From Mytilus edulis (lineage: Eukaryota): a stretch of DNA of 64,000 bases. The notes below the pieces were generated by a model. The model saw nothing but the letters and a program-made list of their open reading frames with translations, had not been told where the DNA came from and searched no databases. Made by a program: the position numbers and the translations under genes. Positions 13,001 to 16,000 of the stretch are shown here, piece by piece; within the stretch, counting starts at the first letter, position 1; each line of letters starts with the position of its first letter. The DNA is taken from positions 61,194,001 through 61,258,000 of the forward strand of contig NC_092345.1 in the NCBI RefSeq assembly GCF_963676685.1, given 5' to 3'.

Positions 13001-16000
13001 TGGATTGTTTGAATCCCCTTATTCAGGTAATCAACTTGTAAATTCAACATTAACTATATATAAGACTCACCAAGTAGTCATATGCTTTGTTGTTGTATTG
13101 AAGTGCCCGTTCGATCTCCTCGTTACAGTAACAAAGATTTCCCAGTCTGCAAGTATGGCTAAGCACCAGAAAAAGGAACATGCTAAGAAACCAGAACTTA
13201 ACACACTTCTATACATGAAAATAGAAAAGAACAACAAAAAATGATACACGTTAAACTATCGCTGTTTGGGGAAAATTATTTTTAAGTGTTTGGTGAAAAA
13301 AGATAAATGTTGTCTTTCTAAGCTTGCATATTTGTTAAACAATTGATACTTTATATACAATAAGGAAATGTGGTACATTGAGTAAAACAACTTTAGGTCA
13401 CTGTACAATGAACAAAACCCATACTCTTATAGTCAGCTATAAAAATCCTAGAAATGAAAGAATGTGAAACAATTAACAGTATGGTAATTAAGAAAGTCTC
13501 CGCCACAAACAGTTTCCCAGGACTAACTTAGACTTTCTTAAATATTATTTGATTTGTAAGGGTTACCATTAAAAGTATCCTGTAAGTCAGATCCTGGTCT
13601 CTATCTTCTAACTAGACCAGCTGGTACACTACCTTGCAATCTCTAAACAAAAATAAGACTATGTGATATGATTACCAATGATACCAATCTTTACCATAGA
13701 CCTTATGACATAGAAGTTAACAATTAAAGATCACAGGACCACTTTCAACAATGAACAAAAAGTTAGCAAGTAATTTCCTGATATTCTAGCGGTGGCTAAC
13801 AAATTAAATATAGCACTGAAGTGTATTGTTTGAATTGCTCCTCATATGAGACAGAACAAAAATATCCCATGAAAATACTTTTGCCAAAAAATCTGAAAAA
13901 TGTATGTCTAAAATGGGAAGAAGTGGTCACAACTTTTTGATAGTACTGTGCAGATACTTATTTTAGTGACAAAAAGAATTAAAGAAAACCAAAAGATCAG
14001 TTTTTCATATGGTATTAAAATGATGATAGTAAGTCCTTTTGATCAGTAAAATCAATTAAACAATTTGAATTGAATAAAATATATATTTCCAGCGCCTCTC
14101 TGGAATCCGGAACCTAATGAACTCATTTTTAAACACATGACAATAATTTTGAGTAGACTGGATCTAGTATTGAATAAAATTATTTACCATACCTAATGAT
14201 TTTCATATCACTATTTTGAATTAAAACAATGTCTTCATGTATAATTATATTACAGGTTTTAACCTACCATACCAATTACCTTACCCTGTCAATGCTCCTA
14301 TACCATTGAACTCTGGAACTCTGGAAGGGCGATACAACTGGCCTCAACCATCACCTTATCATCATCCTATACATGGGTAAGTGGCATGTGTTCTAGCTTT
14401 CCTTCCACTGGCCCAACCATCACCATCATCCTATACATGGGCAAGTGTCCATGTGGCCTAGCATTCCTTCTAATGACCTCACCATCACCATATCATCATC
14501 CTATACATGTGTCTTAGATTTCCTTCTAATGGTCTCACAATCACCATTCCATCATCCTATACATGGGTATGTGTCATGTGTCTTAGAATTCCTTCTAATG
14601 ACCTCACCATCACCATATCATCCTATACATGGGCATGTGTCATGTGTCTTAGAATTCCTTCTAATAGCCTCACAATCACCATACCATCATCCTATACATG
14701 GGCATGTGTCATGCCTCTTAGTGTTCCATTTACAGGTCTCACAATCACCATTCCATCATCCTATACATGGGCATGTGTCATGCCCCTTAGTGTTCCCTCT
14801 ACAGGTCTCACAATCACCATACCATCATCCTATACATGGGCATGTGTCATGTGTCTTAGTGTTCCCTCTACAGGTCTCACAATCACCATACCATCATCCT
14901 ATACATGGGCAACTTTCATGTGTCCTAGGGTTCCTTCCACTATCACCATCATCCTATTCATGGGCAAGTGTCATTTGTTCCATCATTCCTTCTAGCCTCA
15001 CCATCACATTATCATTATCCTATACATGGGCAAGTGTCATGTGTACTTATGTTCCTTCCACTATCACCATCATCCTAAACCCTATACATTTGTAAGTGTC
15101 ATGTGTCCTAGTGTACCTTCTACTGGCTTTCAACATTACCATCATTCTATACATTTGTAAGTGTCATGTGTCCTAATATTTCTATTTTGAAACTGGTTCA
15201 TATAAAAAAAAACAACAGTGAATTTGATTTAGTGAAAATATAGCCTCATTGGAGACATATTACTCCCCTTAAGGTGTGGATTCCTGTTTTCAACTTATTA
15301 AAGCTACTTTTTATTAATATTCAAGGCTAATACAATATTATTCAATGAAATAAACAGAAAGACTTTGATATTCGTAAATATTCTCTATATGAGCTTGTGT
15401 TTCCCATAATTAATGGATGCATGTACTTTAAAATAGTAAACGATTATTCAGCATGGGTGTTTGAGACAATACCACACAGCATATGTTTTAGCCAGAAGAA
15501 AAACACAAGATTACATTAAATTTTACCTACTGTTATTATTCTCCGATGACACATACAGACAATTGGTGTCTTGATGGATATGACATGTACAAAGATATTA
15601 AGTTGATCACTGTTTGTTGTTTTAATTTATTCTATAAAGATTTCATCTACTTATGTGTCTTAAAATTAACACATCAAAACAAACAATTAAGAAATATTGT
15701 TTACAGGTATATTTGAGATTCCTGTTTTCATTGCTGAATCAATAAATAGCGCACATAAAATAATACCTAAAGCTAAAAAATAACAGCAGCAACATAAGTC
15801 TGATATAACTTATAATTTAACTCAGCATAGATAACAGGAATACAATTCTGAACGCCAGACACTAAATGTTTCGTTTACAAAAGACTTGCCAGTGACGCTG
15901 GAATCAAAAGATAACAAGACCAATTTAAAGGACCCAAAAACTCCATAATGTTTTGCCAAATGCAACTATAGTCAATGACAATGAAAAAAAAAATCACAAA

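What the first reader, a model, noticed from the sequence alone, without database searches (positions are those of the whole stretch)
14343..15175. Minisatellite made by amplifying an exon-intron junction: an array of decoy splice sites behind gli exon 3
Seen: the 69-bp unit is the last ~34 nt of exon 3 ([10 protein letters not shown]) plus the donor and the first intron bases. The true donor TGG|GTAAGT (14377) is followed by about 12 copies. Most are mutated to GC (GCAAGT 14441 and 14964; GCATGT four times), but GTATGT (14567) and GTAAGT (15092, 15157) survive. Three central units have also gained a pyrimidine tract plus CAG|GT (14735, 14804, 14873), i.e. acceptor- or ratchet-like sites. Use of any downstream donor reads the in-frame TAA at 14378-14380, and the cryptic exons I traced frameshift or hit TAG. 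Inference: either selection silenced the duplicated donors (GT to GC), or the array is a copy-number-tunable poison-splicing/NMD rheostat for gli. Two frames stay open across the array, so it is also raw material for a His/Cys-rich exon extension.
Basis: partly seen in the sequence, partly recalled or inferred. Interest (0 to 1): 0.7.

Follow-up and report, generated by a model that had tools for sequence, protein, structure and literature searches.

The report
Repeated splice donors in mussel gli
In a mussel's Hedgehog-pathway gene gli, the end of one exon and its splice signal are repeated 12 more times into the next intron and the repeat differs between individuals, but the assembled RNA uses only the first signal, so the copies are likely a tolerated by-product of a kind already known from human and lancelet genes.

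Summary
The array is real: a ~70-bp unit (last 40 nt of gli exon 3 plus first 30 nt of the intron) followed by 12 degenerate copies, 14337-15182, single-locus in the genome. Corrections: the pyrimidine tract is inherited, not gained; CAG|GT arose once; the two GTAAGT copies lost their exonic GG. RNA contigs of two studies end exon 3 at 14376, and one shows the join to 17454; no junction inside the array was seen in 4 RNA runs, but depth cannot exclude rare or NMD-destroyed forms. The array is polymorphic (alleles lacking 59 or 122 bp, or with another donor state). GT-to-GC loss is not clearly above background divergence. This is a new member of a known kind (human F7, CBS, 6-16, LMNB2, PDGFA; lancelet 'mirages'), and this scan has noted several such arrays on other DNA. 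The NMD-rheostat idea is unsupported but untested. One extra: gene models of two freshwater mussels carry an in-frame 28-residue duplicate of the same exon end.

The parts
   Evidence: tblastn of Pecten Gli; RNA joint GT..AG to 14256 in contigs of X15 and X19
14337..14406 (+). source unit: last 40 nt of exon 3 plus first 30 nt of the intron
   Evidence: alignment of units
14377..14382 (+). authentic donor TGG|GTAAGT; contains the in-frame TAA 14378-14380
   Evidence: RNA contigs end at 14376; U1 pairing -11.4 kcal/mol
14407..15182 (+). 12 degenerate copies, 55-70 bp apart, about 20% diverged from the source on average
14441..14446 (+). copy 1 donor GCAAGT; lies in the 59-bp segment 14420-14478 absent from alleles in X3 and X5
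14567..14572 (+). only copy with intact GG|GT (GTATGT); lies in the segment 14495-14616 skipped by a second allele in X1
14633..14914 (+). central units with GC donors at 14633, 14702, 14771, 14840 (GCATGT) and 14909 (GCAACT)
14733..14875 (+). three CAG|GT sites (first base after AG: 14736, 14805, 14874) at the unit seam, from one shared change
14964..15035 (+). GCAAGT copies at 14964 and 15030
15089..15162 (+). two TTT|GTAAGT copies (15092, 15157); 15092 reads TGG|GC in the X15 allele
14996..15091 (+). hypothetical in-frame, stop-free 96-nt cassette (TAG with 14 of 17 pyrimidines, GT donor at 15092); no RNA support
14397..15095 (+). stop-free frame of 232 codons (exon-homologous frame in the central units); second one 14477-14995
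   Evidence: not rare by chance
17454..17629 (+). gli exon 4, joined to 14376 in RNA
   Evidence: 30-letter loose end of X15 contig equals its start; homology

Best explanation
The array is a polymorphic minisatellite whose first unit spans the gli exon 3 donor, and the assembled mRNA splices from that first donor, so the 12 copies are likely silent, tolerated decoys. It likely began as one ~70-bp tandem duplication and grew and shrank by slippage, unequal exchange and conversion. The first donor likely wins because it is both the most upstream and the strongest; any rare use of a later donor would read the TAA at 14378 and would likely be removed by nonsense-mediated decay, keeping the cost low. 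Shown: anatomy, single locus, polymorphism, main junction. Inferred: turnover mechanism, why the first donor wins, fate of leak products, near-neutrality.
For: X15 contig (depth 53) and X19 long-read-library contig both end exon 3 at 14376; X15 continues into exon 4. No joint inside the array in 4 of 4 RNA runs laid. X15 array pieces (depth 2.3 and 6.3) match plain intron pieces (5.3) and one runs unspliced through 15157 to 15523. Source donor -11.4 kcal/mol versus -2.7 to -8.4 for the 11 copies that keep a donor position. Alleles differ in units and donor states across runs of three species labels. Donor-column divergence equals the unit average. No special RNA fold, z +1.16. Tandem repeats cover about 11% of the window; 1 of 21 gli junctions tested is duplicated. 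Precedent: identical pseudo-donors stay silent in human F7, LMNB2, PDGF and lancelet mirages.
Against: Contigs drop rare variants, and premature-stop isoforms would be depleted, so silence is not proven. The only raw-read run (X24, about 6% read) was too shallow; it has about 302 bases on the array (by arithmetic one read pair) against about 453 on exon 2 and 93 at the exon 3 end, all on the same strand, which could be retention as well as nascent RNA. Three GT copies score within the range of real gli donors (-5.6 to -12.6) and exceed intron background (0.43 expected). All 12 copies are weaker than the source. In human CBS and 6-16 the next one or two pseudo-donors are used.
Confidence: 0.75

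Rival explanations
1. Purifying selection shaped the array: copies with an intact strong donor were removed or converted, so only weakened units (GC, TT|GT, deleted) spread. This can hold together with the best explanation.
For: 12 of 12 copies weaker than the source; donor columns 20.5% diverged versus 3.5% in the 12 exon-tail columns beside them; alternative alleles also show GC at 15092 or lack 14567; one unit tree needs up to three separate GT-to-GC changes (read).
Against: Unit-wide divergence is 20.2%; chance of no intact donor among 11 copies is about 0.14 even if independent, and of a GT column being among the majority-changed columns 0.23-0.33; copies are not independent and the tree is poorly supported (bootstrap 33-94); GT copies persist; F7 needs no such silencing.
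Confidence: 0.3
2. Copy-number-tunable poison splicing: later donors or array acceptors divert part of gli pre-mRNA to decay, and repeat alleles set Gli dose.
For: All downstream-donor products and 18 of 18 CAG cassettes carry a premature stop; the array is polymorphic; VNTR-linked splicing exists in ABCA7.
Against: No array junction in 4 RNA runs; the stop is a generic result of a phase-2 GTAA donor, and an unnamed relative's frame also ends at the same residue (P0120); in ABCA7 the one-unit downstream donor product did not track VNTR size; array organisation differs freely between alleles.
Confidence: 0.07
3. Part of the array is or is becoming a coding cassette exon, as the same exon end apparently did in freshwater mussels.
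For: 12 of 127 acceptor-donor pairs are in frame and stop-free; two unionid gene models have an in-frame 28-residue duplicate, 27 of 28 identical between genera.
Against: No RNA support here; the acceptor at 14462 is absent in X3 and X5 alleles and the GT at 15092 is GC in X15; open frames are common by chance; the CAG acceptors are out of phase.
Confidence: 0.04
4. Recursive (ratchet) splicing at the three CAG|GT sites.
For: AG|GT geometry with 12-13 of 17 pyrimidines.
Against: Regenerated donor GTCTCA pairs U1 at -3.8 kcal/mol; each site has another AG 14-15 nt upstream; similar YAG sites occur at about 2 per kb in gli introns; the intron is only 3.1 kb, whereas ratchet sites are known from very long introns (recalled).
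Confidence: 0.02

Closest known systems
Human F7 IVS7 37-bp VNTR (Borensztajn et al. 2006, PMC1557585; seen: abstract, matched passages of the introduction and references, whole discussion)
   Same: First unit spans the exon-intron boundary, donor reiterated in the intron, length polymorphic, only the first donor used.
   Different: F7 pseudo-donors are identical to the real one (5-9 units, 4 exon nt); here 12 copies, 40 exon nt, about 20% diverged, most donors GC; mollusc, no minigene test.
Human CBS IVS13 31-bp VNTR, 6-16 (IFI6), LMNB2 100-bp and PDGF 81-bp minisatellites (as summarised in PMC1557585, passages; CBS nomenclature c.1444_1467+7(16_21) in PMC2630376, passages; the original papers were not held)
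   Same: [quoted passage not shown]
   Different: CBS and 6-16 also use one or two proximal pseudo-donors; no such use was seen here.
Lancelet 'mirage' minisatellites (Ebner et al. 2010, PMC3087553, matched passages; PMC3902484, one passage)
   Same: Invertebrate tandem duplications of exon-intron boundaries, 81-100% alike, unstable in length, not all units keep splice signals, normal splicing, proposed raw material for new exons or introns.
   Different: Other phylum and genes; somatic instability reported at Adh3 was not tested here.
Human ABCA7 intron 18 VNTR (De Roeck et al. 2018, PMC5954066; seen: abstract and one results section)
   Same: Cryptic donor one repeat unit downstream gives a premature-stop, NMD-sensitive transcript.
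   Different: That product was not length-dependent; length instead drove skipping of the next exon. Neither effect is shown for gli.

Membership tests
Junction-spanning minisatellite (F7-type / mirage) | Head-to-tail tandem array | tested here: met
   TRF; alignment
Junction-spanning minisatellite (F7-type / mirage) | First unit spans a real, used exon-intron boundary | tested here: met
   RNA contigs end at 14376 and join 17454; homology on both sides
Junction-spanning minisatellite (F7-type / mirage) | Splice signal reiterated in the intron, intact or degenerate | tested here: met
   11 of 12 copies keep a donor position: 3 GT, 8 GC
Junction-spanning minisatellite (F7-type / mirage) | Length or unit polymorphism | tested here: met
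   joints skipping 59 and 122 bp, variant donor at 15092; no allele was spanned end to end
Junction-spanning minisatellite (F7-type / mirage) | Normal splicing from the first donor predominates | tested here: met
   main contigs of X15 and X19; minor forms not measurable
Poison-splicing / NMD rheostat | Unproductive isoform is actually made | tested here: inconclusive
   none seen in 4 RNA runs, but contigs drop rare forms and raw depth was 1-3
Poison-splicing / NMD rheostat | Isoform rises under NMD block and tracks allele or condition | not testable with these tools
   no matched genotype and RNA data
Poison-splicing / NMD rheostat | Premature stop upstream of later junctions | tested here: met
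   TAA 14378-14380; generic for this donor phase
Recursive (ratchet) splice site | AG|GT that regenerates a usable donor | tested here: not met
   GTCTCA, -3.8 kcal/mol, weaker than 10 of 10 real gli donors; crude proxy

The most novel reading that the evidence does not exclude
The tail of gli exon 3 has been duplicated independently in two bivalve lineages: fixed as a conserved 28-residue coding duplicate in freshwater mussels, and still a shifting 13-unit donor array in marine mussels, where alleles that keep or lose the GT copies leak different fractions of gli transcript into decay and so set Hedgehog output. The locus would then be a natural before-and-after test of exon birth from mirage repeats.
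Probability: 0.08. Interest if true: 0.6.

Novelty: new member of a known kind. Interest (0 to 1): 0.24.

Why it matters
As it stands it is one more example of a described oddity, in a mollusc developmental gene. Its use is as test material: natural alleles that differ in which decoy donors they carry allow a direct test of first-donor preference outside mammals, and of whether selection wears decoy donors down. If the unionid duplicate is RNA-supported, the pair would illustrate the proposed route from junction duplication to new coding sequence.

Tried and rejected
Dispersed repeat or paralogue origin: one locus only for the array DNA and the exon 3 peptide in the own genome (the tool warns counts are lower bounds). 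Assembly artefact: array contigs identical or near-identical to the window in X1, X3, X5 (X1 may be the source sample). RNA structure masking: z +1.16; local accessibility was near zero for the real donor and the GG-flanked copies alike, uninformative. Unit phylogeny: too weakly supported to count independent GT-to-GC events. Copy number from contig depth: central pieces were 1.6-2.6 times flank in X5 and 0.6-0.95 in X3, a hint only, since the tool says depth is no copy number. X16 had no exon cover, so says nothing; X24 too shallow. No full-length Mytilus Gli isoform set was found: the one named model starts downstream of these exons. Representative-protein search with exon 3 gave 5 hits, one spurious spider repeat protein, no further duplicate. 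First intron background included two unmasked exons and was redone. Literature: no paper with Mytilus+gli+hedgehog+intron, none with VNTR+splic+UPF3A, none with the four terms; the CBS and 6-16 originals were not held; supplements were not consulted. The RNA lays did not include exon 4 itself, so exon 3 skipping and exact junction counts were not measured.

Full report
Locus. The window is part of a 1.37-Gb animal assembly. The gene is gli: its last exon finds molluscan and vertebrate Gli proteins and is 90% identical to a Mytilus coruscus GLI2 model, so the host is most likely a Mytilus mussel (inference). The peptides on both sides of the 14376/17454 junction line up with the EGRY region of other Gli proteins.

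Observation. TRF reports the array at 14337-15172, period 69. The source unit is 14337-14406: 40 exon nt and 30 intron nt. Twelve copies follow at spacings of 55-70 bp. Donor states: GCAAGT at 14441, 14964, 15030; GCATGT at 14633, 14702, 14771, 14840; GCAACT at 14909; GTATGT at 14567; TTT|GTAAGT at 15092 and 15157; one unit has lost its donor by a 14-nt deletion between two CATG words. Copies differ from the source at 149 of 738 aligned letters. The array and the exon are single-locus in the genome. Of 21 gli junctions tested, only this one is duplicated in the window.

Acceptor-like sites. The pyrimidine run is the ancestral intron stretch, present in every unit. At the seam between units, ACTGGC became ACAGGT in three neighbours that are 93-96% alike and form the only well-supported clade, so this is one event. 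Each has another AG 14-15 nt upstream; YAG sites with equal pyrimidine content occur 69 times in 35 kb of gli intron. A ratchet would regenerate GTCTCA, at -3.8 kcal/mol weaker than all 10 real donors scored. Two open frames are not remarkable: 1441 of 5000 shuffles give two or more.

Donor strength. By U1 duplex energy, a crude proxy, the real donor is -11.4, second of 10 gli donors (range -5.6 to -12.6); no GT in 35 kb of intron equals it. The copies range from -2.7 to -8.4. The three GT copies (-8.4, -7.3, -7.3) are thus as good as some real gli donors, against 0.43 expected by background in 800 nt. They are not obviously dead; position and competition must matter.

Selection. All 12 copies are weaker than the source. 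Donor columns (-2 to +6) differ at 18 of 88 letters (20.5%), the adjacent exon tail at 5 of 141 (3.5%), the rest of the unit at 22-27%. The chance of no intact donor among 11 independent copies is about 0.14, and copies are not independent. The tree cannot fix whether GT became GC once or up to three times. Selection is possible, not shown.

RNA. The run search listed 24 runs; 4 RNA or RNA-like runs were laid on 12700-16150. X15 (depth 53) and X19 (long-read library, depth 4.6) each give one contig joining exon 2 to exon 3 and leaving the stretch at 14376; in X15 the next 30 letters equal the start of exon 4. No joint lies in the array. Depth in the exon-end bin is fully explained by those contigs. 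X15 has array pieces at depth 2.3 and 6.3, like plain intron pieces (5.3), one running unspliced through 15157. X16 has one array piece and no exon cover. X24, the only raw reads, had depth 1-3: about 302 bases on the array, by arithmetic one pair at about 14548-14757, against about 453 on exon 2; one pair cannot separate nascent from retained RNA. Contigs drop rare forms, so a leak of a few percent stays open.

DNA. Three DNA-like runs of three species labels hold the array (3 of 14 strong holders laid; X1 may be the source sample). X3 and X5 skip 14420-14478, losing copy 1's donor and the 14462 acceptor. A second X1 allele skips 14495-14616, which includes the 14567 GT donor. The X15 allele reads TGG|GC at 15092. 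No contig spans the array, so whole alleles are unknown; depth hints at more central units in X5. It behaves as a VNTR.

Mechanism. Shown: junction-derived unit, one locus, allelic variation, main junction from the first donor. Inferred: tandem turnover by slippage and unequal exchange; first-and-strongest donor wins; leak products would meet the TAA and likely be degraded. The TAA needs no special explanation: a phase-2 GTAA donor always gives it, and an unnamed relative's frame stops at the same residue.

Known kind. Borensztajn et al. (PMC1557585; abstract, passages, discussion) describe this architecture for F7, 6-16, CBS, LMNB2 and PDGF: only the first donor, or the first two or three, is used, and identical pseudo-donors do not compete. 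Lancelet mirages are the invertebrate case, with normal splicing and a proposed role in exon or intron birth (PMC3087553, passages; PMC3902484, one passage). In ABCA7 a donor one unit downstream gives an NMD-sensitive product of about 2% that does not track length (PMC5954066, abstract and section 21). PMC10078293 (passages) added no closer case. Earlier notes of this scan list several such arrays in other animals; one led me to the mirage paper. One search found nothing on this locus in print, in a limited library.

A parallel. Of 88 full-length Gli proteins fetched that show the EGRY-type motif, 2 have it twice: models from Potamilus streckersoni and Sinanodonta woodiana carry a 28-residue in-frame copy of the same exon end, 15 of 28 identical to the first copy and 27 of 28 identical between the genera, whose proteins are 91% alike overall. 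This looks like a conserved coding duplicate from an independent, longer duplication. These are gene models; their DNA and RNA were not seen.

Verdict. Interest 0.24.

Noticed in passing
P0005 residues about 132-187; P0118 (unionid Gli models), homologous to window 14290-14376: In-frame 28-residue duplicate of the exon 3 tail in two freshwater-mussel genera, 27 of 28 identical; 2 of 88 Gli proteins examined.
   Followed up: partly
window 14375, second allele in X1: G-to-A change at the second-last exon base: turns the split codon from Gly to Ser and gives AG|GT; this allele is also about 7% divergent in the upstream intron and has lower depth.
   Followed up: no
window 16199-17327 and 45778-46791: Two arrays of a 169-bp unit (6.7 and 6 copies, over 90% alike) inside gli introns, each next to a GGAC/GTCC microsatellite; the first fills over a third of the same intron.
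   Followed up: no
window 15980-16150: Short high-copy dispersed repeat that draws many unrelated reads and contigs in every run.
   Followed up: no
window 61498-62278: Two overlapping frames that look like a broken reverse-transcriptase fragment of a retroelement (motif resemblance recalled, not tested).
   Followed up: no
window 27405-27461: Coding 9-bp repeat (His-Asn-Pro, about 6 copies) inside a gli exon.
   Followed up: no
P0098: The Mytilus coruscus GLI2 model begins at the exon near window 27548 and lacks the N-terminal exons, probably a truncated annotation.
   Followed up: no
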